From positions 1-52,403 of IMG/VR virus record IMGVR_UViG_3300032782_000001: DNA of 52,403 nucleotides. The stretch is one strand, 5' to 3'. The notes under the pieces are model-generated. The model ran no database searches and was not told the origin of the DNA. It was given only the letters and a program-made list of their open reading frames with translations. Made by a program: the position numbers and the translations under genes. The first letter of the stretch is position 1. Each line of letters starts with the position of its first letter. This DNA is from a virus. Below are positions 8,948 through 40,059 of the stretch, piece by piece.

Positions 8948-9291
8948 TCCTGGTTGTACGGGTCCACTCGACATTCCAGCCTCGTCCACACGTCTTGGAA
9001 CCAGGTTTCCATCTTCTCGACCGAATCTCCCTCCCTCAACGATCGGGAGATGTCGAAAAAGTCGTCTTGGTTCCTTCGATAGAACCGGGCTTCGGCAGAG
9101 AAGGCGGTGTCTCCGCCGTAAGGCCGATGATCCCACCAATACACGTGAATGCAGTACAACTTCTTGACGTAGGTCGTGTCTTGGTCGAGGAAACTTCCTC
9201 GGATCCATTTGGACCACAAGCCGTCCGCCTTGTGAGGCTTGGATTCCCGGTACCCGGCTTTTTCGAGATCTGCTTCGGTGATCATCGTCAA
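8944..9291 (-). CDS. hypothetical protein (115 aa)
   Basis: ORF track; overlaps upstream gene stop. Confidence 0.6.
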   Translation of the reverse strand: MTMITEADLEKAGYRESKPHKADGLWSKWIRGSFLDQDTTYVKKLYCIHVYWWDHRPYGGDTAFSAEARFYRRNQDDFFDISRSLREGDSVEKMETWFQDVWTRLECRVDPYNQE

Positions 9292-9950
9292 ACCTCCACC
9301 ACTTGATATCCGATCTCGCGCGGTTGCCTTTCCTCGTCCAGATAAGCTGAATTGCAGAACTCCATCTCTTGGATGGTTTGGCGACCGAATCCGCCGTGCA
9401 CGTGTCCACTGAGCACGGCTTTCACTCGATGATCCGACTCGTAGAACAGGAAGTTGTACAGGTGAATGTTCCCCCTTTGCAGATCCAGGATCATGCTGGG
9501 CGGACAGTGGGCGAGCAACACGTCCGCCATTTTCAGCTCATCTTGGATCCAACGGAACTCTTGCCACATGTCTTGTGACCGACGTTCCCAGTTCCACTCC
9601 CCTTGAAGGTACGGGATGAAAGGGATCCCGTAGAACGTTCGGTCTTCCCACGTGATCAACTTCTTCGTCACGTTGACGGCGCGGATCCCGCCGGCTTTCA
9701 ACAGATCCTCGACGCGTTCCGGTTCCAGAAAGTCGTGATTTCCCGCCACGAACAGGAACGGCCGGTCTCCAAGCCATTCCTTCAATTTCTTCATCCTCCT
9801 CCGGAGCCAGTCCTCTTGGAACTTGGGCTCGACGGACCAGTCTCCACGCGTCTCGTTCGGCATGAAATCCCCCGAATGGACGACAGGCGCATCCAAATCC
9901 GGCAAATCCGGGAGCCTCCCATGCGTGTCAGAAACGTGGATGAGTTTCAT
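9288..9950 (-). CDS. calcineurin-like metallophosphoesterase
   Basis: motifs IHVSDTHG (DxH), GDF, GNHD, GHVH; ORF track trimmed to Met5 after GGTGAG RBS. Confidence 0.8.
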   Translation of the reverse strand: MKLIHVSDTHGRLPDLPDLDAPVVHSGDFMPNETRGDWSVEPKFQEDWLRRRMKKLKEWLGDRPFLFVAGNHDFLEPERVEDLLKAGGIRAVNVTKKLITWEDRTFYGIPFIPYLQGEWNWERRSQDMWQEFRWIQDELKMADVLLAHCPPSMILDLQRGNIHLYNFLFYESDHRVKAVLSGHVHGGFGRQTIQEMEFCNSAYLDEERQPREIGYQVVEV

Positions 9951-10000
9951 CTCACCAACCAATACGGCTCGACCCGTCGAATTTACGCCGACATCACTTC
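9951..10000 (-). promoter_or_regulatory. conserved upstream cassette
   Basis: minus reading GGCGTAAATTCGACGGGTCGAGCCGTATTGGTTGGTGAG-ATG; its TAA doubles as the stop codon of 9983..10237. Confidence 0.5.
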
Positions 10001-10237
10001 CCAGACGAGGAATTCTTCTTCAGTTATCCGGATCCATTTGTCTCCCAGGAACCCTGGTTTAAATCTGAGTGAATACTGATGTAGATTGCAAACAGCTGCG
10101 GCCCGATTCCCCGTAGGGCTCAATAGGAAGAAGTGTCTTGCAGGCCCGTTCGGCATCGACCCTTCTTCGCGTCTCTGCGCTTCGCACATCTCGCATTTTC
10201 GGACGCCACTTGTAAAATCTTCCATGTCGTCTGACAA
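9983..10237 (-). CDS. Cys-rich small protein, tail ...EEEFLVWEVMSA (tail family)
   Basis: ORF track. Confidence 0.55.
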   Translation of the reverse strand: MSDDMEDFTSGVRKCEMCEAQRREEGSMPNGPARHFFLLSPTGNRAAAVCNLHQYSLRFKPGFLGDKWIRITEEEFLVWEVMSA

Positions 10238-10442
10238 TCGGAAAGTTTGTCAGTCTAAACAACCACCCTGCAATGATCCGGCGGTCTTTGTCTATCACTA
10301 CTGGGATCCGCCTCCAGACCATCCCGGCTTGTCTCACCTGCCAAAAGACGACGAGGCCGCATTATGCGCGCGGTTACTGCAATCCCTGCTACCAGCGCGC
10401 CAAGCGGCCTTCAAGAGCTAAGTCGGCTTTCCGTGAGGAATT

Positions 10443-10724
10443 TCAAACCCACTCGAAGCCGAGACAGGAAAGGACGCTGGAAAGCCAGTCTCCGATGAGC
10501 TCCGGGTCCTGATCGGTGTCTCCCTCGAGGAGCTCGCCGTACTCCTTGTTGGCCTTTTGGATCTCCTCCCAGAGCTCGAACTTGTTGAGGGCGTCCGTGC
10601 CGATGCGCTTGTCGTTTCCGAAGTGGAACTTCCCGCCTCGGAGTTCTCCTTCCGCTTCCAGCTCATCCCAAGCCGCGTCGTACTGCTCGAACGTGGGGAG
10701 CTCGCCGTAGGTCATCGAGATCAT
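10443..10724 (-). CDS. acidic hypothetical protein (93 aa)
   Basis: ORF track 10443..10970 trimmed to Met83 after GGAGGTGACGCG; cassette at 10725-10790. Confidence 0.6.
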   Translation of the reverse strand: MISMTYGELPTFEQYDAAWDELEAEGELRGGKFHFGNDKRIGTDALNKFELWEEIQKANKEYGELLEGDTDQDPELIGDWLSSVLSCLGFEWV

Positions 10725-10915
10725 CGCGTCACCTCCGCGATCGGATACGCCGTGACTCGTTGGATTTACGATCGCGTTGTACGGTTCCCTAAGTGATCGT
10801 CCTTGACGATATTCCGACTTGCACTGCGGACCTCGGCGGTCTTTGGGATGATGAACCTCTTTGCAAGAATCCGGTCCGGTGGGTATTAGTGACACCCAAC
10901 GCTTGCCGACACTCC

Positions 10916-11032
10916 ATGGATGATTTTCCAGAGGGAGTTTGTGATGAGCATAAGATGCATCTGCGCCCAAGAGATGATCAAGTCATCCTGAGCGTAGAAG
11001 AATTCATCTGCTACGACGTCTCTACCTCTTGA
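10916..11032 (+). pseudogene. possible degenerate, inverted tail-family member (...SVEEFICYDVSTS)
   Basis: plus-strand ORF amid minus genes, no RBS, imperfect tail. Confidence 0.25.
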
Positions 11033-11035
11033 AAT

Positions 11036-11230
11036 TTATTCGCCGTGACGCGTGCTTTTCAGCTCCTGCATCTCGACATTGAGCGCCTTGAGTTCCTTGT
11101 AGAACCCGAGCTTCTTGGCGAGTGCTGCGATCTTCTTGAGATCCGATCGCTTCACGACCACGTGAGCTCGCATCCACTTCCGAGCGTCTTCTTCTCGGAA
11201 GATATCCTCGGTGTTGTTGATGTAGATCAT
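11036..11230 (-). CDS. hypothetical protein (65 aa)
   Basis: ORF track trimmed to Met8 after GGAGGG. Confidence 0.5.
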   Translation of the reverse strand: MIYINNTEDIFREEDARKWMRAHVVVKRSDLKKIAALAKKLGFYKELKALNVEMQELKSTRHGE

Positions 11231-11295
11231 TCGCCCTCCATCAACGTACACTTCTTTCCGGCTGAACCCTTGTAGGCGTGAAGGGAGTCGAACCC

Positions 11296-11514
11296 TTAAG
11301 ACATCATTACTTCATGGACGATGAACTCTGCTCGAGTGAGTTCCTGGACGAATCCCTTCTTGATTTCTTCCAAGAAAGTCGGATCCTCCGCGACGCATCG
11401 TTTGCAGCGGATAATGGGTCGCTTGCTGATGGTTCCTACAAAGAACCGGACGTCCTTGCTCATGCACATCGTGGTTTCCCACCCGAAGGGTACTTGGTTC
11501 TGGCAATAATCCAT
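11296..11514 (-). CDS. Cys-rich small protein, tail ...RAEFIVHEVMMS (tail family)
   Basis: ORF track 11296..11568 trimmed to Met19; cassette at 11515-11570. Confidence 0.55.
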   Translation of the reverse strand: MDYCQNQVPFGWETTMCMSKDVRFFVGTISKRPIIRCKRCVAEDPTFLEEIKKGFVQELTRAEFIVHEVMMS

Positions 11515-11590
11515 ACTAGTCCCGGAAACCAGCCAATACGACGACCGGCGAATTTGCGCTATTGCCAAGTATGGCTGAGGACAGTTTACA

Positions 11591-11667
11591 GGTGGACCGG
11601 AAGGGATTCGAACCCTCAGTTAGGAAGTTTTTAAAACCTCTGTGTCTGCCTTTTCCACCACCGGTCC
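11591..11667 (-). tRNA. tRNA-like gene, anticodon UAA (Leu-type anticodon but short variable arm)
   Basis: 7/7-bp acceptor GGACCGG/CCGGTCC, T-arm GAGGG-TTCGAAT-CCCTT, anticodon arm GAGGT-TTTAAAA-ACTTC, 3-bp D-stem, 77 nt ending ACC; coordinates approximate. Confidence 0.55.
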
Positions 11668-11687
11668 GGATTGGTTCCTTCTTCGGT

Positions 11688-11855
11688 TCAGTTTTCTTTG
11701 AGCCAATTACGATGACTGGCTGCTCGGAGTTTTTCCAGTTTTCGCAGTTCTTTTAATTCTCGTAGCCATTTTGCTAGTTGCTTATGATCTCTTCCGCAAG
11801 GAGTGTCCTCGGAGGATTTTTCTTCCGCATGTTTAATAGCTTCTTCGAGTCTCAT
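11688..11855 (-). CDS. small AT-rich basic protein (55 aa) upstream of the tRNA
   Basis: hand-translated; no SD; coordinates approximate. Confidence 0.3.
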   Translation of the reverse strand: MRLEEAIKHAEEKSSEDTPCGRDHKQLAKWLRELKELRKLEKLRAASHRNWLKEN

Positions 11856-11867
11856 CCAGTGTATCCT

Positions 11868-12098
11868 TTACGCTTCCGGCAGCTTCACATGGATCCAGCC
11901 GAGAGACTTCGAGTTGTTGAGGCTCGGCTTCCTCTCACCTTCTCGAGCTGGCTGAGTATCCCCGGCCTTACGTTCCAGAACATCGAAGTTCGTGGCAGCC
12001 GTGTTCTTCTGACGAATCTCGTTGAAGGCCATCTGAGCGGCCTCTTCCGGCGAATTGGCCTCGAAGTCCATGTCCCAGCGCACGCGGTAATTCTTCAT
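11868..12098 (-). CDS. hypothetical protein (77 aa)
   Basis: ORF track trimmed to Met34 after AAGGAGAAGCG; ATGA overlap with upstream gene. Confidence 0.55.
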   Translation of the reverse strand: MKNYRVRWDMDFEANSPEEAAQMAFNEIRQKNTAATNFDVLERKAGDTQPAREGERKPSLNNSKSLGWIHVKLPEA

Positions 12099-12469
12099 CG
12101 CTTCTCCTTCGGAGCCTTCTTTGCTGGACGAACACTCGCCTTGTTGAACCTTCCTGAGACGAGGCTGATGACGCCAAGGAGCGTGGCCTCCCCACAAAGG
12201 ATGGAGCCTTCCGCAGCGTCGTAGAGGTAAATGCCCTCGAAAGGGTGACTCACCAACCCGAGGTAATCCTCTTCGTATTCCTGGACGACCTTCCGGTCCT
12301 TCCAGAACTGTTGGGCGCGTTTGGTGGCGAGTTGGATGTCGGAGTATGCTCCGAGGATGACATCCGTTGTCTCGTCATCTTGGACGATGACGTCCGGATC
12401 TCCTTCACCGTCTTGGTCCGTCACCACGTCGTAGTTGTTCCAAACGGTTCCCAGGATCACAACTGCCAT
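12095..12469 (-). CDS. acidic hypothetical protein (124 aa)
   Basis: ORF track trimmed to Met4 after GGAGGTGACGACG; cassette at 12470-12525. Confidence 0.6.
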   Translation of the reverse strand: MAVVILGTVWNNYDVVTDQDGEGDPDVIVQDDETTDVILGAYSDIQLATKRAQQFWKDRKVVQEYEEDYLGLVSHPFEGIYLYDAAEGSILCGEATLLGVISLVSGRFNKASVRPAKKAPKEKR

Positions 12470-12520
12470 CGTCGTCACCTCCAGATCAGGATACGACGTG
12501 ATCCGCCGAATTTGCGCTGG

Positions 12521-12709
12521 TCAGGCCGACATCACTTCGTACACGAGCCACGAGTTTCTCTCTTCGGGGGACATGGACTGAATAACTTCATCCAAGTTTG
12601 CCTGAAGCCTTTGCCGAAAGACTTCACGTTTCTCTTCGGACCTGGTGTCGTTCGTCAGCACATCTTGCAGTTGAGCGCTGATCCAGAACGCATCTTGAAC
12701 TTTGCTCAT
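12521..12709 (-). CDS. small protein, tail ...SWLVYEVMSA (tail family)
   Basis: ORF track; ATGA overlap. Confidence 0.5.
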   Translation of the reverse strand: MSKVQDAFWISAQLQDVLTNDTRSEEKREVFRQRLQANLDEVIQSMSPEERNSWLVYEVMSA

Positions 12710-13029
12710 GATGCATGGACCGCCAAGATGGTCATCTGACGCTTCACACGTTCTTTGATTTCCTCGAGGGGTCCGAAGAAGATGCGAAACCCGACGCCAT
12801 CCTTCGTGTACCAGATCTCACGACCATTGGCCTCTTGGGCGATGTTCATCCCGATCTGGATGTACTCGTGGGGCTCCAAATCCTGCCCCACATAATCGAA
12901 ATCCGTGAGTCCACCCTCGGTGAAATCCCCATTATCCAACGGGAAGATCTCGGCGTCGTTCTCTCGAGCGACAATGAACTCGGCGACAAGCGCCTGGAGT
13001 TCCTCATCCTCCTTGAATTTCAGCTCCAT
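12706..13029 (-). CDS. hypothetical protein (107 aa)
   Basis: ORF track 12706..13182 trimmed to Met52 after GGAGGATGGCTC. Confidence 0.55.
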   Translation of the reverse strand: MELKFKEDEELQALVAEFIVARENDAEIFPLDNGDFTEGGLTDFDYVGQDLEPHEYIQIGMNIAQEANGREIWYTKDGVGFRIFFGPLEEIKERVKRQMTILAVHAS

Positions 13030-13229
13030 GAGCCATCCTCCAGCTTCTTCAGCTCCACGAGCGCCTTGGCATATGCCTCTTCGATCATCGACCGACGAGC
13101 CAATGCGAGGTGAGCTTTTTCGTGGTCGACGACTGCCTTCCGCTCGGACGCCGTGAGCTTCCGGATCATGCCGGGGTCCCAACAGACAGAACAGGTTCCA
13201 GCCTTGTAAACCATCTTAGGTTCGGCCAT
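13020..13229 (-). CDS. hypothetical protein (69 aa, CxxC)
   Basis: ORF track trimmed to Met4 after GGAGGTGACGATA; cassette at 13230-13280. Confidence 0.55.
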   Translation of the reverse strand: MAEPKMVYKAGTCSVCWDPGMIRKLTASERKAVVDHEKAHLALARRSMIEEAYAKALVELKKLEDGSWS

Positions 13230-13277
13230 TATCGTCACCTCCAGATCTGAGTACGTCGGCGACCGGCGAATTTACGA

Positions 13278-13841
13278 TCACGCCTCCATCACGTCGAACA
13301 CATAACATAACTGAAGGGCTTTTTCCTTGGAAATTTCCTCGAATTTCTTGACCTCTTTGGCAAGTATGCAGACTTCACAAAGTCCAAATGGAGGTTCTCC
13401 CTGGAAGAACTTCTTAGCCGGCTTCCGCTCGGCGGTTTTCCCGAGGTCTCTACCTTTGGAATCGTATTTTGAATGCATGTTCCTGCAAAACATCAGCATC
13501 CCGGAAGGAGGAAGTGGAGTTGATGATAAGAAGGCTTCTTGTTCGGGTAGTCCTGTGAGGTCGGATTTATTTATCGCTCCCGCTCCAAGCGCTCTTACCT
13601 GGTCGAGGACGTGCATGACCGATTGGTACTTGGTGAGACGCAGATCCTGAATGATTTCTGTACTGAGACCACTTTTGAGTAGCCTTTGAACCGAGCCCAC
13701 AGGCACGTGTTCCATCATGGAGCACACTTGCACATAACGCTCCGTGGCGTACCGCTTGTAGCCCTTTTCGTAAAGCCCTTTCGCCTCCAGCATGGCTTGA
13801 CGAATTTTGTCCATCAAAGCATTCAACGATATGTCGTCCAT
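13278..13841 (-). CDS. hypothetical protein (187 aa), tail ...LCYVFDVMEA (tail family)
   Basis: ORF track; stop lies inside the downstream gene's cassette. Confidence 0.6.
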   Translation of the reverse strand: MDDISLNALMDKIRQAMLEAKGLYEKGYKRYATERYVQVCSMMEHVPVGSVQRLLKSGLSTEIIQDLRLTKYQSVMHVLDQVRALGAGAINKSDLTGLPEQEAFLSSTPLPPSGMLMFCRNMHSKYDSKGRDLGKTAERKPAKKFFQGEPPFGLCEVCILAKEVKKFEEISKEKALQLCYVFDVMEA

Positions 13842-13849
13842 GATTCGAC

Positions 13850-14170
13850 CTAGCTATACATGACCGTCCAGACAGTCCACTCTTCGTCCGAAAGCTTGCG
13901 GATTTTCCCATGGAAGATGGTGTCTTCTCCCATAAAGCCCTTGTTCATGCACGACTTGCAGACGAGGAACATGGTGGCCCGGATCTTATCCAGCTTATCC
14001 AGACTCCCTACATTGGAATGCTGTTGAAGGTATTCTTCGGCGAAGACGAAAGCTGCAATGGGCTTCCCTGACTGAGTCCCCATGTGATTGGAACATGATG
14101 GGTCGCAGCAACGACCAGCTGTACCCCTCTTGGCCCTGGCCAGAAGCACCATCAGCTCTCGGTCGTTCAT
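13850..14170 (-). CDS. Cys-rich protein (106 aa), tail ...EEWTVWTVMYS (tail family)
   Basis: ORF track trimmed to Met10 after GGGAG. Confidence 0.5.
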   Translation of the reverse strand: MNDRELMVLLARAKRGTAGRCCDPSCSNHMGTQSGKPIAAFVFAEEYLQQHSNVGSLDKLDKIRATMFLVCKSCMNKGFMGEDTIFHGKIRKLSDEEWTVWTVMYS

Positions 14171-14172
14171 AT

Positions 14173-14325
14173 CTACTCCCAGTTCTCGACTTTCCAAGCG
14201 GACTGGCGCTCCTTGGCGCGTCGATCCGCTCGATGACGCATCTTCGCAGCCTTGCAGTTAAGAATGGCCGTAAGGCATTCGATGGAACGGGGCTTTTTAG
14301 GCTGCCGAGCCTTGCGAATCTTCAT
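14173..14325 (-). CDS. small very basic protein (50 aa, MKIRKARQPKKPRSIECL...)
   Basis: hand-translated; GGAGGTGACGACG-ATG; cassette at 14326-14380; not in ORF track (under 60 aa). Confidence 0.4.
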   Translation of the reverse strand: MKIRKARQPKKPRSIECLTAILNCKAAKMRHRADRRAKERQSAWKVENWE

Positions 14326-14372
14326 CGTCGTCACCTCCAGGCGAAAATACGCCGGGGGCTGACGGACTTCCG

Positions 14373-14787
14373 CTATGCGACTTGCACCTGCTGGACAATC
14401 CTCTTAGCGAGGTATACGTTGCATTCCGCGATGAAGGCATCGTTGATGGCGTAATATCGATTGTCGAGATCATCGGTATCCTCACCAGACACCGCGTCCG
14501 GGTCGAATTTCATCGCCAGTTGGACGAGCCGCAGAACTTTCGCGGACAGGTCCGTGTTCATCTGATTCAGGGCGAACTTCAGGAACGGAAACCCGACGTC
14601 GTAGCGGTTGCCGAGCCACTGGGAGAAGCCCCCCGTTTTGAACCTGATGGTTCAATTGCCCGAGAACGGCGGCGTCCCTTTGCAGAGGCTCGAGACTCAT
14701 GAGGAAGGTCTCCGTCGACCAATCACTGTGGTCTCGCCACAGGTCGTATGCCTCGTTCATGAGCCTCTGGTGCACGGAATCCGGCAT
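14373..14787 (-). pseudogene. single gene split into two ORFs by a +1 frameshift at a C6/G6 homopolymer (14637-14642)
   Basis: ORFs 14482..14787 and 14373..14561 read sensibly only when joined (...LNHQVQNGG / TGGFSQWLGNRYDVGFPFLKFALNQMNTDL...); run of six G on the coding strand at the junction. Confidence 0.5.
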
Positions 14788-25794: not shown

Positions 25795-25891
25795 TCGACT
25801 GTAAAGTGCTCGGCCCCAACTTCAAAAGCAGTGCGGCGCGCAGCCGCAAATTCGCCGCTGCTCCGCGTATCGGGCAGTGGAGGTGACGCGA

Positions 25892-27001
25892 ATGCTCACG
25901 AACATCAACGAGATCGATCAAGAGACGCTCATGCGGGTTCTCCGCTTCACGATCAAGTCGGGGGGCAATCTCATGACCTTCGGGCCGGCCGGCATCGGCA
26001 AGACCGAGATGGCCATGCAGGCCTGCAAGGAGGAGGGTTACAGGTTCGTCTATCTGAACCTGTCCGTCCTCGAGGCTCCGGACATGGTGGGCCTGCCGCA
26101 GGTCCAGGATGGCAAGACGAGCTATGCTCCGCCGGAGACCATCCCGCTGCGCGACGACAACCAGAAGAAGGTGGTGCTGCTCGTGGATGAGGTCGACAAG
26201 GCCAAGCCCGAGCTGCAGAACCCCTGCCTCGAGCTCTTCCAGTTCCGCGCCATGAACGGTCGCGAGATGAACATCCACAGCGTCATCGCGACGGGCAACC
26301 TGCCCGACGAGGGCGCCTTCTCGCAGCCCGTCAGCCACGCGCTCACGAACCGGTGCCTCGTGTTCAGGGTCACTCACGCCTTCGATCCGTGGCTGCAGTG
26401 GGCGACCGGCCCCGCGGCGGTCCATCCTCTCATCGTGGGCTTCCTCAGCAAGAACCCGGAGTACCTGCTCATGCCGGATGCCTCGGGTGACACCACGGCT
26501 TACTGCCATCCGAGCCCTCGCCAGTGGACCCTCGCCGCGAAGGACCTGGAGCACACGTCGACGGCGGACCACATCGACTTCCAGACGCTCCTCATCGCGG
26601 GTCGCGTCGGGACGGCGGCCGCCGTCAAGTTCCGGGTCTGGCTGGAGCACTACCGCCACGTCGAGCCCCTCATCGAGGCGCTCGTCAAGAAGGGCGAGCA
26701 CCCGGACATCAAGAACATGGCGATCGACCGCCAGTTCGTTTGTGCCCTGAGCGCCGTGGGTGCCATCGCAGCCGAATGCCGCAAGACGCTCGCCCCTGGC
26801 AAGGACAAGGAAGAGCAGAAGAAGAAGACCCACAAGTACACGGAGAACGTCTTCACGTGGCTCGGGAAGCTCCCCTCGGAGTTCGTCATCGGGGCCGTCA
26901 AGACGGTCCTCAACATGAAGATGATCCAGGACTACGACCTCACGAAGATCGCTCCGTTCATGCAGGAGTACATGAAGGTCAGGCAGGCCTTCAAGGACTG
27001 A
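25892..27001 (+). CDS. MoxR/AAA_5-type AAA+ ATPase
   Basis: Walker A GPAGIGKT, Walker B VVLLVDEVDKA; ORF track trimmed to Met6 after GGAGGTGACGCGA; cassette at 25840-25891; 11-bp perfect hairpin CCGAGTCTGCG..CGCAGACTCGG at 27027-27083. Confidence 0.8.
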   Translation: MLTNINEIDQETLMRVLRFTIKSGGNLMTFGPAGIGKTEMAMQACKEEGYRFVYLNLSVLEAPDMVGLPQVQDGKTSYAPPETIPLRDDNQKKVVLLVDEVDKAKPELQNPCLELFQFRAMNGREMNIHSVIATGNLPDEGAFSQPVSHALTNRCLVFRVTHAFDPWLQWATGPAAVHPLIVGFLSKNPEYLLMPDASGDTTAYCHPSPRQWTLAAKDLEHTSTADHIDFQTLLIAGRVGTAAAVKFRVWLEHYRHVEPLIEALVKKGEHPDIKNMAIDRQFVCALSAVGAIAAECRKTLAPGKDKEEQKKKTHKYTENVFTWLGKLPSEFVIGAVKTVLNMKMIQDYDLTKIAPFMQEYMKVRQAFKD

Positions 27002-29899: not shown

Positions 29900-31387
29900 A
29901 TGCAGATGTCCGATGTCTCCAGGCTGAAAGACCCGAAGCGGGTCTGCACGAAGGAGGACGGGTCTTACGACCACGCCCGTCTCGCCCTCTTGCAAAAGAA
30001 GGTTTCCGACTGCATGACGAAGATGTTCCGCAAGCCCGAGGGCGGCGGAAACCCCTTCCTCTACGCCCTCACCCTGCCCAAGCCGCACGAGCTCGCCATC
30101 GAGCTCCCCGGGCCCAATGGGAAGGACTTCCACACGGCTGCCACCGACGGCAAGAAGTTCTGGTGGCACCCGGACTTCCTCGAGAAGCTGGACTCGGAAG
30201 AGGTGCCCACGGTCATGGAGCACGAGGGTTATCACGTGATCCTCTTCCATCCGCAACGTGGCGTGGGGACCAACCCCCGCATCTTCAACTGGGCGATCGA
30301 CTACGTTGTCAACGCCATCATCGAGACCAATCACAAGCAGCTCAACCGCAAGGGCAAGCTTTGGGGCGGGAACCTCGGCGAGCCGCTCTCGTTCGCGGAT
30401 CTTCTCTCGTACATCGATGGAAATTCGGAGCTCCCGAAGGACAAGAATTCCATCTTCGTGGACGTCTCGCTTCACGGACGGAGTCCGGAGTCGATCTACG
30501 AAGAGATCATGGATCATTGGGACAAGAGTCCGCGCAAGTGCTCTCTCTGTACGTGCCTGTCCATCGATCCGAAGACTGGCAAGCCCATCCACGCCCTTCA
30601 CGGCAAGAGCCCAGTGCCGCCGGAGAAACCGCACGACCCCCACTGCGACGGGACCTGCTGTCCCAAGTGTGGCGTCAAGTCGGACCCGCTCGGGTCGATG
30701 GACGCTCACATCCCGGGCGCCCTGACGAAAGATGAGGTCATGGCGGATATCATGCGCGCCAGGGACCAGTCGACGGCCATGAGGGGCACCGTTCCCTCCG
30801 AAGTGGAAGATGCGCTCAAAGAGCTGATGAAGCCTACGCTGAAGTTCACGGACATCGTCAAGTCCTGCTTCATGCGCAAGATCCAGGATGCTGGGATGAA
30901 GAACGACTGGAAGCGCTGCCGACGCCGGTGGTTGGCCTCCAATCCCAAGCAGTATCTCCCGAGGCGCCACACTCATCGGCCCCGGTGGCTTGCGATGGTG
31001 GACACCAGCGGCTCCATGCAGGACGATGATCTCCTCTACGGAATCTCTCAGCTCAAGGTTCTGGGAGACAACACGGAAGGTTACGTCATCCCCTGCGACG
31101 CATCTCCGAAATGGGATGCCATGCAGAAGATCGACAAGGCCACGGACCTGCAGAGGACCAAGATCGTCGGGCGCGGAGGAACGGTCTTCGATCAGTTCTT
31201 CCAGGACTTCCCGAAGAAGATCGGGACGGACTTCGACGTGGTGGTCATCATCACGGACGGAGACTGCGGGACGATCCCCCTGCACCTCAAGCCGCCGTGC
31301 GATGTCGTCTGGGTCATCACCCGGACCATGAAGGAGTATAAGCCCAGCTTCGGACGCGTGGCCCCGCTCCGCCCCTCTCGGATGTGA
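29900..31387 (+). CDS. VWA-domain protein with N-terminal HExxH metallopeptidase-like module (DUF2201-like partner of MoxR ATPases)
   Basis: HEGYHV motif, MIDAS DTSGSM; GGAGGTGACGAA-ATG; cassette at 29850-29899. Confidence 0.75.
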   Translation: MQMSDVSRLKDPKRVCTKEDGSYDHARLALLQKKVSDCMTKMFRKPEGGGNPFLYALTLPKPHELAIELPGPNGKDFHTAATDGKKFWWHPDFLEKLDSEEVPTVMEHEGYHVILFHPQRGVGTNPRIFNWAIDYVVNAIIETNHKQLNRKGKLWGGNLGEPLSFADLLSYIDGNSELPKDKNSIFVDVSLHGRSPESIYEEIMDHWDKSPRKCSLCTCLSIDPKTGKPIHALHGKSPVPPEKPHDPHCDGTCCPKCGVKSDPLGSMDAHIPGALTKDEVMADIMRARDQSTAMRGTVPSEVEDALKELMKPTLKFTDIVKSCFMRKIQDAGMKNDWKRCRRRWLASNPKQYLPRRHTHRPRWLAMVDTSGSMQDDDLLYGISQLKVLGDNTEGYVIPCDASPKWDAMQKIDKATDLQRTKIVGRGGTVFDQFFQDFPKKIGTDFDVVVIITDGDCGTIPLHLKPPCDVVWVITRTMKEYKPSFGRVAPLRPSRM

Positions 31388-35245: not shown

Positions 35246-35294
35246 CCGGCGTAAATTCGATCGATTGCGACGTATTGGATCGTGGAGGTGACGA

Positions 35295-38988: not shown

Positions 38989-40059
38989 CTACTTGGTGGA
39001 CTTCACGGTCACCCGGACGCAACCCTTCGGCGTCTTGGCGAAATAGTCCTTGTAGTGCCGAAGGAGCAGGTTCCAAATGATCCGCTTGTGCGTCTCTTGC
39101 TCGCCGGTCGTCGGGTCACGACCCATCAGAGGGCGCTGCTCCTCCCGCACCTCACTCCCGATGTCCACCCGGACAATCTTGTGGAGGGGAACGACCGTCG
39201 CGCGCAGCGGCTTGCTGAAGAAGGCACCCTGGAGGTACTTCAGGGAGTTCGTGAACTGCCACTTCCAATCGGCCTTCTTGCACCAGATCTCGACCGAGCC
39301 GGGGTATTTCTCCGACTCCTTGATCTCGACGACGCAGAGGCTCTCGCGCAGGAGGGAGGCCAGCATCCTGTAGCCGAGGCTCTCGATGGCGTCGGTGCAC
39401 GCCTTGTGGACCTCGCTCTTGCGATTGAGGCTGCAGACGCGGACCAGACCGTTGACCATGCCCCGAATGCCCTGCGGCTTGTAATTCTGGACCAGGAACT
39501 CCACGAGTTCCGGGTACTCCGCCAGATCGATCATGGCCTGCATCTCGTCGCCGTCCTTCGGCTCCTCGAAGTAGCCCTTCTTGCTGCAGATCGGCCCGAG
39601 ACCGCGCTCCACGGACTCGGAGTCCGTCAGCTTCAGCGCGCAGTGGGCGCAATGCGTGCACACGCCCTCGAGGATGAGCTGCCCATGGCGCTGCTTCTGC
39701 TTCAGGACGCCGCCGACGATGCCGTTCTGGGGCAGGTTCAACTGCGCCATCTGCGAGACCAGGACGGGCTTGGGGCCGCTTTCGGGCGCGGGCTCCTCCT
39801 TCGCGGGGTTGCCATCGTTCGACTCGGACGGGTACTCGTCCCGAGCCGAATCCGGCTCGGAATCCATCTCGGCCTGGTAAGCCGCTCGCTCTTGCTCGGC
39901 CTCCTGGCGACCGAATTCGTTCTTCATCGCGATCCAATCTTGCGCTGCTTGATCCATCGTGTCACCTCCATCGTCCGATACGCCGGGAGGCGCCGAATTT
40001 GCGGCTCGCCTGTCGGCTTCTTCTTCAATGCGAAGGAGGAATTCCTTGAGTTTGCTCAT
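38989..40059 (-). CDS. hypothetical Cys/His-containing protein; two candidate starts (40059 coupled by ATGA overlap, or 39957 after the in-frame cassette)
   Basis: ORF track; the cassette (GCAAATTCG..CGTATCGG..GGAGGTGACACG-ATG) lies in-frame at 39958-40015 and encodes ...AANSAPPGVSDDGGDT-M. Confidence 0.55.
   Translation of the reverse strand: MSKLKEFLLRIEEEADRRAANSAPPGVSDDGGDTMDQAAQDWIAMKNEFGRQEAEQERAAYQAEMDSEPDSARDEYPSESNDGNPAKEEPAPESGPKPVLVSQMAQLNLPQNGIVGGVLKQKQRHGQLILEGVCTHCAHCALKLTDSESVERGLGPICSKKGYFEEPKDGDEMQAMIDLAEYPELVEFLVQNYKPQGIRGMVNGLVRVCSLNRKSEVHKACTDAIESLGYRMLASLLRESLCVVEIKESEKYPGSVEIWCKKADWKWQFTNSLKYLQGAFFSKPLRATVVPLHKIVRVDIGSEVREEQRPLMGRDPTTGEQETHKRIIWNLLLRHYKDYFAKTPKGCVRVTVKSTK

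What the first reader, a model, noticed from the sequence alone, without database searches (positions are those of the whole stretch)
11270..11900. tRNA-like gene with anticodon UAA (a class-I-shaped 'Leu' tRNA) in an AT-rich island, plus a nearby tRNA 3'-end-like fragment
The tRNA-like gene lies at about 11591-11667 on the minus strand. It has a perfect 7-bp acceptor stem, a canonical T-loop (GGTTCGAATCC), and an anticodon loop UU-UAA-AA, but a short variable arm and only a 3-bp D-stem.

In high-GC hosts UUA codons are rare, so an element-encoded tRNA(UAA) could be a codon-usage or regulatory device. The fragment at 11281-11297 (GGGTTCGACTCCC followed by CACGCCTACA) looks like a tRNA T-arm plus 3' end without a 5' half, as seen at integration-site remnants. 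Region 11690-11900 is markedly AT-rich.
Basis: seen in the sequence. Interest (0 to 1): 0.55.

Follow-up and report, generated by a model that had tools for sequence, protein, structure and literature searches.

The report
Short-armed leucine tRNA in huge phage
The window holds a genuine phage-encoded leucine tRNA (anticodon UAA) that lacks the long extra arm normal for bacterial leucine tRNAs; this shape turns out to be common in large phages, so it is a fairly ordinary new example, and the nearby "tRNA fragment" looks like a decayed tRNA remnant rather than an integration site.

Summary
The tRNA is real. ARAGORN calls tRNA-Leu(UAA) at 11591-11667(-), and the Rfam tRNA model scores 50.5 bits.

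It is not a class-I tRNA that acquired a Leu anticodon. Its D arm (U8 to A26) is almost identical to that of E. coli leuZ and T4-like phage tRNA-Leu. It carries A73, U8/A14, A15/U48, G18G19 and A20a. Only the variable region is cut down, to 6 nt. The "only 3-bp D stem" is the tRNA-Leu hallmark.

Such short-armed ("type I") tRNA-Leu genes are frequent in large phages. I found 51 distinct ones in 61 IMG/VR loci, 10 more in metagenomes and one in a cultured Erythrobacter phage. Published precedents exist in Streptomyces coelicolor and in mycobacterial tRNA clusters.

The window belongs to a phage genome of about 436 kb. The tRNA sits inside an operon of small genes of unknown function. UUA is the second-rarest sense codon in the window (16 of 13,398), so bulk codon supply is not an obvious role.

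The fragment at 11273-11297 is a perfect T arm, 15/17 identical to the neighbouring tRNA's. It matches no genome among 185,579 species, has no 5' half and no integrase nearby. It is probably a relic or partial duplicate, not an attachment core.

The "AT-rich island" is a modest dip (GC 0.45) inside a coding gene.

A much stranger side observation: about half of the proteins end in the same peptide, V-x-x-V-M-E-S.

The parts
11591..11667 (-). tRNA-Leu(UAA) gene, type I (short variable region). The 75-nt body runs 11667 to 11593 and is followed by CC (11592-11591); the final A of CCA is not encoded.
   Evidence: ARAGORN; Rfam tRNA 50.5 bits; alignment to E. coli leuZ and a Karamvirus tRNA-Leu; identical in three independent assemblies.
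11631..11633 (-). Anticodon UAA (sequence positions 35-37) within the loop UUUAAAA, which is identical to the loop of E. coli leuZ.
11618..11623 (-). Variable region CUAACU (6 nt), in place of the 13-17-nt stem-loop of class II tRNA-Leu. It fits the YNAACU consensus of short tRNA-Leu(UAA) genes elsewhere.
11641..11660 (-). Leu-type D arm, U8 to A26 (UGGUGGAAAAGGCAGACACA): 3-bp stem, A14, A15, G18G19, A20a.
   Evidence: 16 of 20 positions identical to E. coli leuZ. The exact D arm was found in only one genome of 185,579, in a class II tRNA-Leu(UAA) of a Candidatus Cybelea MAG.
11273..11297 (-). tRNA-like 3' fragment: T arm AAGGG-TTCGACT-CCCTT, then a 7-nt acceptor-like strand CACGCCT, then A. 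It has no 5' half. Its first two bases are the last two of the stop codon of the upstream gene.
   Evidence: Only a 13.7-bit partial tmRNA-model hit, and no tRNA hit at E<=1. No AGGCGTG-led 5' half anywhere in the window.
11296..11568 (-). Small gene between the tRNA and the fragment. The likely start is at 11514 or 11469 (57-72 aa). It ends in ...EFIVHEVMMS and belongs to the small paralogue family that carries the shared C-terminal tail.
11688..11855 (-). 55-aa Lys/Glu-rich gene directly upstream of the tRNA; its stop lies 20 nt before the tRNA 5' end.
   Evidence: phrog_33451, E 2.6e-10; GC 0.45
12470..12520 (-). Nearest upstream copy of the phage's recurrent promoter-like plus Shine-Dalgarno motif (GCAAATTCG-N11-CGTATC-N8-GGAGGTGACGAcgATG). 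It is the likely start of the transcript that carries genes 12095-12469, 11868-12098, 11688-11855 and the tRNA.
   Evidence: motif seen upstream of about 35 genes; no terminator-like site on the minus strand between it and the tRNA; that it acts as a promoter is inferred
11231..11271 (-). Degenerate copy of the same upstream motif, in front of gene 11036-11230 (AAGGGTTCAG...TGTACG...GGAGGGCGA-ATG). Its first 8 bases, AAGGGTTC, repeat the start of the T-arm-like fragment 26 nt upstream.

Best explanation
The feature is a functional gene of a roughly 436-kb phage for a 'type I' leucine tRNA. It has a tRNA-Leu(UAA) body whose long variable arm has been reduced to a 6-nt loop.

Inferred steps, none shown here:
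- It is transcribed as part of a leftward operon of small genes from a phage-specific promoter about 850 nt upstream.
- It is cut out by RNase P and 3' processing.
- It is completed to CCA by the host nucleotidyltransferase, because only CC is encoded.
- It is charged with leucine by a LeuRS that tolerates a short variable loop.
- It reads UUA, and by wobble UUG.

Shown here: the gene has an intact cloverleaf, a Leu-type D arm and, by sequence, all the determinants known for E. coli-type LeuRS. It also belongs to a large, covarying family of short tRNA-Leu genes in big phages.

The T-arm fragment 294 nt downstream is most likely a relic of a second tRNA gene, or a decayed partial duplicate of this one, left between a small inserted or paralogous gene and the next promoter.
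For: Detection.

Leu identity:
- The best full-length matches among 50,697 GenBank phages are annotated tRNA-Leu(UAA) of T4-like phages, with a gap at the variable arm.
- In a three-way alignment, U8-A26 is essentially invariant, the anticodon loop is identical, U48 is kept and so is A73.
- The review PMC9976931 names A73, A14, A15-U48, G18G19 and A20a as E. coli determinants and says the long arm is not correlated with leucylation.

Family:
- A pattern requiring a Leu-type D arm, an NAR anticodon and a 4-7-nt variable region hit 61 IMG/VR loci.
- ARAGORN calls these tRNA-Leu of 74-78 nt with all six Leu anticodons, while Ser and Tyr tRNAs in the same arrays stay 83-95 nt.
- RNAalifold on 31 of them gives the cloverleaf, with compensatory changes at 18 of 20 pairs.
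- The UAA members share the 6-nt loop YNAACU.
- The cultured Erythrobacter phage vB_EliS-L02 has one.

Precedent for charging: S. coelicolor LeuRS, S. azureus LeuRS and human mitochondrial LeuRS all leucylate a type I tRNA-Leu (PMC6614811).

Context:
- The tRNA lies 20 nt after the stop of a phrog_33451 gene, with no terminator on that strand.
- The sequence is identical in ENA, Logan and window assemblies.
- A second lone tRNA, Lys(UUU), which also ends in CC without A, lies about 4.7 kb beyond the window.

Fragment: its T arm is 15/17 identical to this tRNA's T arm, and chance expectation is 0.06 per window.
Against: - No expression or aminoacylation data exist.
- E. coli LeuRS and S. purpurogeneiscleroticus LeuRS could not charge the Streptomyces type I tRNA-Leu (PMC6614811). 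Charging therefore depends on an unknown host enzyme, or a phage one.
- UUA is almost unused by the window's own genes: 16 codons, 1.5% of Leu. The benefit is unclear.
- No close relative of this phage was found, so conservation of this particular gene could not be tested.
- The MFE fold of the single sequence is not unusually stable (z = -1.25), which is usual for tRNAs.
- The family survey was seeded with a D-arm pattern, so D-arm invariance in it is circular.
Confidence: 0.75

Rival explanations
1. bldA-like timing or regulatory device. The host supplies little or no tRNA-Leu(UAA). The phage's few UUA-containing genes can then be translated efficiently only after the phage's own tRNA has accumulated.
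For: UUA is strongly avoided: 16 observed against 87 expected from positional base composition, scattered one or two per gene over 14 genes. ATA, AGA, CTA and ACA are avoided as well, as in organisms with scarce tRNAs for A-ending codons. Other lone short tRNA-Leu(UAA) genes occur in contigs of 61-69% GC (L026, L075, L076). The bldA precedent is described in PMC6614811.
Against: The host and its tRNA set are unknown. The UUA-bearing genes show no functional pattern, and several are doubtful gene calls. Only about 12% of the genome was seen. The tRNA would also read the common UUG codon (178 codons).
Confidence: 0.12
2. Counter-defence spare part. The tRNA replaces a host tRNA-Leu that is cleaved or depleted during infection. 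The missing long arm makes it invisible to an enzyme that recognises class II tRNAs.
For: Phage tRNAs have been proposed to escape host anticodon nucleases (PMC10264068). Short-armed tRNA-Leu genes recur in many unrelated phage tRNA arrays while Ser and Tyr tRNAs keep long arms. This suggests a Leu-specific pressure or tolerance.
Against: The anticodon loop is identical to that of E. coli leuZ, so there is no loop-escape signature. I found no report of a bacterial nuclease that uses the long arm of tRNA-Leu. The pattern could equally reflect genome streamlining permitted by LeuRS not needing the arm.
Confidence: 0.08
3. Decaying or non-functional tRNA-Leu gene. Loss of the variable arm inactivated it, and it persists only as a passenger.
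For: E. coli-type LeuRS does not charge a type I tRNA-Leu. CCA is incomplete. The cognate codon is hardly used. A tRNA fragment next door shows that tRNA genes do decay here.
Against: All four stems are intact, with only one G-U in the anticodon stem and one in the T stem. Every universally conserved tertiary base is present. The 50.5-bit score is typical of working tRNAs. The same architecture, with the same 6-nt loop, is maintained with compensatory changes across dozens of phages.
Confidence: 0.05
4. The fragment at 11273-11297 is the core of an attachment site: the 3' end of a host tRNA gene carried by an integrating element.
For: It has the right shape (T arm plus acceptor 3' strand plus discriminator), and it lies in direct orientation 294 nt from an intact tRNA gene.
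Against: The exact 23-mer is absent from 185,579 species genomes. Its acceptor strand CACGCCT does not pair with the 5' strand GGACCGG of the neighbouring tRNA. No integrase was found. The genome is a roughly 436-kb phage.
Confidence: 0.03
5. The fragment is a chance hairpin or a by-product of the phage's repeated intergenic motif, not tRNA-derived.
For: P is about 0.055 for one such T arm per window. TTCGAC and TTCG are part of the recurrent upstream motif AAATTCG(AC). AAGGGTTC is repeated 26 nt downstream, in the -35-like position of the next gene's motif. The local fold is no more stable than shuffles (z = 0.05).
Against: It lies within 320 nt and on the same strand as the only tRNA in 52 kb. 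It is 15/17 identical to that tRNA's T arm and is followed by CCCTTC, as in the tRNA.
Confidence: 0.3

Closest known systems
Type I tRNA-Leu(CAA) of Streptomyces coelicolor (Fan et al. 2019, PMC6614811)
   Same: A bacterial-type tRNA-Leu with a short, unpaired variable loop (5 nt there, 6 nt here), in a system where class II tRNA-Leu is the rule. That tRNA was shown to be leucylated by a suitable LeuRS.
   Different: A chromosomal gene with anticodon CAA. A73 is not an identity element there. The gene here is phage-borne with anticodon UAA and unknown LeuRS compatibility.
Short tRNA-Leu genes in phage tRNA arrays: 61 IMG/VR loci, 10 metagenome contigs, Erythrobacter phage vB_EliS-L02 (OL955261, 75645-75722), and the short-loop tRNA-Leu(TAG) of mycobacterial tRNA clusters (PMC6582537)
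   Same: The same architecture: Leu-type D arm, A73 and a 5-7-nt variable region. UAA members share the loop YNAACU. The nearest is L026, at 79% identity.
   Different: Most sit in dense arrays of 10-38 tRNAs, often with a tmRNA. This one is a lone gene among protein genes. Its D loop AAAAGGCAG is unusual, and it encodes CC but not CCA.
Class II tRNA-Leu(UAA): E. coli leuZ and T4-like phage tRNA-Leu (e.g. Enterobacter phage fGh-Ecl01)
   Same: The D arm, anticodon loop, U48, T loop and A73 are nearly identical. These are the best full-length BLAST matches.
   Different: They keep a 13-15-nt variable stem-loop and are 82-87 nt long.
bldA, the developmentally important tRNA-Leu(UAA) of Streptomyces
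   Same: The same anticodon, in a setting where UUA is a very rare codon.
   Different: bldA is a class II chromosomal tRNA with a demonstrated regulatory role. No such role is shown here.
Animal mitochondrial tRNA-Leu(UUR)
   Same: A type I tRNA-Leu with anticodon UAA, whose identity rests on A73 and A14 without a long arm (PMC9976931).
   Different: An organellar, structurally relaxed tRNA with a dedicated LeuRS. There is no evolutionary link to this gene.
tRNA-gene 3'-end attachment sites of integrating phages and islands
   Same: The fragment has the form of a tRNA 3' end lacking its 5' half.
   Different: There is no identical host tRNA, no integrase, and its acceptor strand does not fit the adjacent tRNA.

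Membership tests
tRNA (Rfam RF00005) | Cloverleaf with conserved U8, A14, G18G19, U33 and the T loop, scoring above the curated threshold | tested here: met
   50.5 bits against a gathering score of 29, full-length match; ARAGORN call
Bacterial tRNA-Leu (LeuRS substrate) | Leucine anticodon (NAG or YAA) | tested here: met
   UAA at 11633-11631
Bacterial tRNA-Leu (LeuRS substrate) | Discriminator A73 | tested here: met
   A follows the acceptor strand CCGGUCC
Bacterial tRNA-Leu (LeuRS substrate) | Leu-type D arm: 3-bp stem, U8-A14, A15 with U48, G18G19 placement, A20a | tested here: met
   16/20 identical to E. coli leuZ over U8-A26, and U48 conserved; the determinants are listed in PMC9976931
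Bacterial tRNA-Leu (LeuRS substrate) | Long variable arm (class II shape) | tested here: not met
   The variable region is 6 nt, CUAACU. It is therefore not a canonical class II tRNA-Leu.
Bacterial tRNA-Leu (LeuRS substrate) | Actually accepts leucine | not testable with these tools
   Needs an aminoacylation assay. The literature shows the outcome depends on the LeuRS.
Type I (short-loop) tRNA-Leu | tRNA-Leu body with an unpaired variable loop of about 5-7 nt | tested here: met
   6-nt loop. It aligns without strain to 30 other short tRNA-Leu genes, and 18/20 pairs covary.
Type I (short-loop) tRNA-Leu | Co-occurrence with a LeuRS able to charge type I tRNA-Leu | not testable with these tools
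   The host is unknown. No ORF in the window is longer than 495 aa, so no LeuRS is encoded here.
bldA-like regulatory tRNA | The cognate UUA codon is rare and confined to a specific set of regulated genes | tested here: inconclusive
   UUA is rare (16/13,398), but the 14 genes carrying it show no pattern, and most genes are of unknown function.
bldA-like regulatory tRNA | Temporally controlled expression or maturation of the tRNA | not testable with these tools
   No expression data
tRNA-3'-end attachment site (attP/attB core) | Sequence identity with the 3' end of a host tRNA gene | tested here: not met
   GGGTTCGACTCCCTTCACGCCTA gave 0 matches in 185,579 species genomes.
tRNA-3'-end attachment site (attP/attB core) | Neighbouring integrase or recombinase gene | tested here: not met
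   No recombinase domain in the 20 largest proteins, nor in the 10 genes around the site. Smaller ORFs elsewhere were not scanned.

The most novel reading that the evidence does not exclude
Short-armed tRNA-Leu may be a phage-favoured design with a function of its own. For example, it might escape a host factor that recognises class II tRNAs, or it might depend on a particular LeuRS and so tie the phage to certain hosts or to its own synthetase. On this reading, this huge phage keeps a lone copy for its rarest Leu codon as a timing or anti-defence device. The adjacent T-arm relic would then mark recent turnover of tRNA genes by insertion of small tail-bearing genes. The prevalence of this tRNA shape in phages appears not to have been described systematically.
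Probability: 0.15. Interest if true: 0.55.

Novelty: new member of a known kind. Interest (0 to 1): 0.3.

Why it matters
On its own the gene adds one more phage tRNA.

The slightly wider point is that tRNA-Leu without the long arm, described as rare in bacteria, is common in large-phage tRNA sets, while tRNA-Ser and tRNA-Tyr keep their arms. This is natural evidence that many bacterial LeuRS enzymes do not need the arm. It also gives a ready panel of sequences for studying LeuRS recognition and for engineering compact tRNA-Leu scaffolds.

For annotation, it warns that a 75-78-nt 'tRNA-Leu' call in phages is not a prediction error.

The relic fragment is a small example of tRNA-gene decay inside a huge phage.

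Tried and rejected
- DNA similarity of 9000-14500 to GenBank phages: no match.
- Exact and semi-degenerate searches for this particular tRNA in IMG/VR: none.
- BLAST of the tRNA against E. coli genomes: no match at the size-adjusted threshold. Against plasmids: only T-arm pieces.
- Search for the unusual D arm in 185,579 genomes: a single class II tRNA-Leu(UAA) in a Candidatus Cybelea MAG. This is too weak to name a host.
- Relatives of the phage through the neighbouring phosphoesterase: none in IMG/VR. The one 47%-identical homologue lies in a different phage that has a tmRNA but no tRNA-Leu at that place. Conservation of this locus therefore could not be tested.
- Considered and rejected a class I tRNA of another identity (Lys, Phe or Ile) with a mutated anticodon, acting as a recoding tRNA. 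The D arm, U48 and A73 are those of tRNA-Leu.
- Considered a stop-codon suppressor. Anticodon UAA reads UUA/UUG, not a stop.
- Looked for a 5' half of the fragment, as in a split or permuted tRNA. None of the nine AGGCGTG sites is followed by a D arm, and Rfam finds no partial tRNA.
- Terminator and sigma-70 promoter scans around the tRNA gave nothing on the relevant strand.
- The fold of the intergenic region containing the fragment is not special.
- Literature searches for phage type I tRNA-Leu found only the Streptomyces and mycobacterial reports.
Full report
**Observation**

ARAGORN finds a single tRNA in the 52,403-nt window, tRNA-Leu(taa) at 11591-11667 on the minus strand. The Rfam tRNA model matches 11593-11667 end to end at 50.5 bits, against a gathering score of 29 (E 2.4e-9).

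The sequence reads GGACCGG-UG-GUGG-AAAAGGCAG-ACAC-A-GAGGU-UUUAAAA-ACUUC-CUAACU-GAGGG-UUCGAAU-CCCUU-CCGGUCC-A-CC. That gives:
- a perfect 7-bp acceptor stem
- a 3-bp D stem plus G13/A22
- the anticodon loop UU-UAA-AA
- a 6-nt variable region
- a canonical T arm
- discriminator A
- an encoded CC without the last A.

The fragment is also there. On the minus strand, AAGGG-TTCGACT-CCCTT runs from 11297 to 11281. It is followed by CACGCCT, then A, then CAA.

The 'markedly AT-rich' stretch 11690-11900 has GC 0.450 against 0.544 overall. This is the 5th percentile, and about twenty other segments are equally low.

**What the tRNA is**

The rest of the molecule is a textbook bacterial tRNA-Leu.

- Among 50,697 GenBank phage records, the only matches covering the whole molecule are annotated tRNA-Leu(UAA) genes of T4-like phages. 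They align with a gap where their variable arm lies.
- I aligned it with the tRNA-Leu of Enterobacter phage fGh-Ecl01 and with E. coli leuZ. Positions U8 to A26 (UGGUGGAA..GG.AGACACA) are invariant except for loop bases 16, 17 and 20 in all three, plus position 22 in the phage tRNA. The anticodon loop UUUAAAA matches leuZ exactly and differs from the fGh-Ecl01 loop only at position 32. The base before the T stem is U in all three, and so is discriminator A.
- The 3-bp D stem is therefore the tRNA-Leu signature, not a weakness.
- The tRNA identity review PMC9976931 lists A73, A14, the A15-U48 pair, G18G19 and A20a as the E. coli leucine determinants. It states that the long arm's sequence and folding do not correlate with leucylation. 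By sequence, every one of these determinants is present here.

That the tRNA is charged with leucine is an inference. It was not tested.

**It belongs to a large family**

I searched IMG/VR with a pattern demanding the Leu-type D arm, an NAR anticodon, a 4-7-nt variable region and a T loop. It hit 61 loci.

- ARAGORN calls these tRNA-Leu of 74-78 nt, with all six leucine anticodons.
- Most lie in dense tRNA arrays of contigs up to 389 kb.
- In the same arrays, tRNA-Ser (85-95 nt) and tRNA-Tyr (83-88 nt) keep their long arms.
- There are 51 distinct short sequences including the window's. The nearest, L026, is 79% identical.
- RNAalifold on 31 of them returns the cloverleaf, with compensatory changes at 18 of 20 pairs.
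- The UAA members share a 6-nt loop YNAACU: CUAACU here, and CCAACU, UCAACU or UAAACU elsewhere.
- A second pattern for this subfamily found 10 more in JGI metagenomes. Three of these (L071, L075, L076), like L026 from IMG/VR, lie in contigs of 52-69% GC, and in L026, L075 and L076 the tRNA stands alone.
- A cultured example is Erythrobacter phage vB_EliS-L02. Its 78-nt tRNA-Leu(UAA) is not annotated in GenBank.

One caveat: the survey was seeded by a D-arm pattern, so it shows that the type is frequent but does not measure how frequent.

**Literature**

- Fan et al. (PMC6614811) describe a type I tRNA-Leu(CAA) in Streptomyces coelicolor. They call such tRNAs rare in bacteria.
- They show that S. 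coelicolor, S. azureus and human mitochondrial LeuRS charge it, whereas E. coli LeuRS and S. purpurogeneiscleroticus LeuRS do not.
- Behra et al. (PMC6582537) mention in passing a short-loop tRNA-Leu(TAG) in a mycobacterial tRNA cluster.
- I found no paper that treats the phage cases.

**Context**

- The window has no DNA match in GenBank phages. It does encode phage-type proteins: phrog_1297 ATPase, phrog_1314 VWA/DUF2201, ATP-dependent DNA ligase and a metallophosphoesterase. These sit among about a hundred small genes of unknown function.
- The same sequence occurs in ENA assembly ERZ27256589 on contigs of 102,037 and 337,333 nt, in Logan SRR8881007, and, judging by an identical protein, on a JGI contig of 436,316 nt. 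This is a phage genome of about 436 kb.
- The tRNA and the fragment are identical in all assemblies.
- Genes run leftward up to about 21 kb. The tRNA starts 20 nt after the stop of a 55-aa gene that matches phrog_33451. That gene is the 'AT-rich' stretch.
- About 35 genes are preceded by a very regular motif, G[CT]AAAT[TC]CG-N11-12-CGTA[TC][TC]-N7-8-GGAGGTGACGA-n-ATG. The nearest copy upstream of the tRNA is at about 12470-12520. No terminator-like site lies between it and the tRNA on that strand. The tRNA is therefore probably co-transcribed with three small genes and excised; this is inferred.
- No ORF in the window exceeds 495 aa, so no LeuRS is encoded here.
- A second lone tRNA, Lys(UUU), lies about 4.7 kb beyond the left end. 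It too ends in CC without A.

**Codon use**

I predicted 113 genes with a self-trained codon model. In them:
- UUA occurs 16 times in 13,398 codons. That is 1.5% of Leu codons and makes it the second-rarest sense codon after AUA. Base composition predicts 87.
- UUG occurs 178 times.
- The 16 UUA codons are spread over 14 genes with no visible pattern.

It also means the tRNA is not needed for bulk translation of this region. Whether the other 88% of the genome differs is unknown.

**The fragment**

- A T arm with five Watson-Crick pairs and a TTCRANY loop is expected 0.06 times per window.
- This one lies 294 nt downstream of the only tRNA, on the same strand. It is 15/17 identical to that tRNA's T arm and is followed by the same CCCTTC. 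That makes chance unattractive, though not excluded.
- It has no 5' half. Rfam gives only a 13.7-bit partial tmRNA-model hit. The complementary strand AGGCGTG is nowhere followed by a D arm.
- Its acceptor-like strand does not pair with the neighbouring tRNA's 5' strand.
- The 23-mer GGGTTCGACTCCCTTCACGCCTA is absent from 185,579 species genomes.
- No integrase was seen.
- The region between the tRNA and the fragment holds one small gene of a paralogue family.
- The fragment's first 8 bases recur 26 nt downstream, in the -35-like position of a degenerate copy of the upstream motif.

The best reading is a relic of a second tRNA gene, or a decayed partial duplicate. The attachment-core idea fails its own test.

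**Mechanism and rivals**

The most likely account is a working phage tRNA-Leu(UAA) of the short-loop type (confidence about 0.75). The alternatives for its purpose or status are:
- a bldA-like timer (0.12)
- a defence-resistant spare (0.08)
- a dead gene (0.05).

The intact structure and the conserved family argue against decay. The identical anticodon loop argues against the known escape route, which works through loop mutations.

**Verdict**

This is a new member of a known but under-described kind. It is of modest interest by itself.

**Side observation**

The more surprising thing in this window is not the tRNA. Forty-seven of the 113 predicted proteins, and 53 ORFs of at least 40 aa by a looser scan, end in one shared peptide. 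The consensus is V-x-x-V-M-E/D-S-COOH. Details are given under 'noticed in passing'.

Noticed in passing
window about 5400-52403, both strands (stops at e.g. 8699, 9983, 11296, 12521, 13278, 20103, 20301, 37410 on the minus strand; 24801, 25360, 35245, 42852, 46512, 47328, 47603, 52400 on the plus strand); continues in L080 to at least 8 kb beyond the window's right end: 47 of 113 predicted proteins end in the same C-terminal peptide, with consensus V(-7)-x-x-V(-4)-M(-3)-E/D(-2)-S(-1). A looser scan counts 53 ORFs of at least 40 aa. Often the tail is preceded by EE[FWL][ILV]. The strict motif occurs 21 times at C-termini and never internally. The same scan finds 39 in the 20-kb locus L080 and 0 in 564 kb of unrelated viral loci. 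Serine is encoded by all six codons, and the V and E codons vary too, so selection acts on the peptide. 27 of 46 tails are followed by a spacer of more than 10 nt, so stop/start overlap does not explain them. Most of the proteins are otherwise unrelated. No literature hit for the motif. It could be a targeting, packaging, degradation or docking tag; this is unexplained and possibly new.
   Followed up: partly
L069 (ENA ERZ26871208 contig_255971, 74,589 nt), a distant phage sharing only the phosphoesterase: This other phage lacks the VMES tail but has its own recurrent C-terminal tail, [WYF][DE]R[LI]x(1-8)-stop (e.g. VWDRLDE, VYERLLRDDE, TIWERLLKVE), on 9 ORFs in 20 kb. The window has none. Phage-specific shared C-terminal tags may be a wider phenomenon.
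   Followed up: partly
upstream of about 35 genes across the window, e.g. 12470-12520(-), 13230-13277(-), 35246-35294(+), 25840-25891(+): A highly regular upstream element, G[CT]AAAT[TC]CG-N11-12-CGTA[TC][TC]-N7-8-GGAGGTGACGA-n-ATG. It is probably a phage-specific promoter followed at fixed distance by a strong Shine-Dalgarno sequence. It does not match the sigma-70 consensus.
   Followed up: partly
L081 13626-13699 (ENA k141_1250017), about 4.7 kb left of window position 1: A second lone tRNA of the same phage, tRNA-Lys(UUU), 74 nt. It has U rather than the usual A at the discriminator position and, like the tRNA-Leu, an encoded CC without the final A.
   Followed up: no
window 25892-27001, 29900-31387, 38989-40059, 1750-2115: A few genes have third-position GC of 0.84-0.94, against about 0.6 for their neighbours. 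They are the MoxR-like ATPase, the VWA/DUF2201 protein, a DUF6011 protein and one ORF of unknown function. This could reflect recent acquisition or different expression constraints.
   Followed up: no
whole window / assemblies ERZ27256589, SRR8881007, JGI contig of 436,316 nt: The window is part of a phage genome of about 436 kb with almost no recognisable genes in these 52 kb. 10 of the 10 next-largest proteins have no Pfam hit.
   Followed up: partly
L026 (IMG/VR, GC 0.61), L075 and L076 (JGI, GC 0.67-0.69): Other lone short-loop tRNA-Leu(UAA) genes sit in high-GC contigs without tRNA arrays. This parallels the present case and is relevant to the idea of a rare UUA codon in a GC-rich host.
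   Followed up: no
L008-L010, L025, L028, L031, L035, L039, L043, L047, L050, L052, L056, L062, L063 and others: Many of the phage tRNA arrays that carry short tRNA-Leu genes also encode a tmRNA, with tag peptides DNNRYASPIAA or GINKALSNFFGFAEEMPLAA.
   Followed up: no
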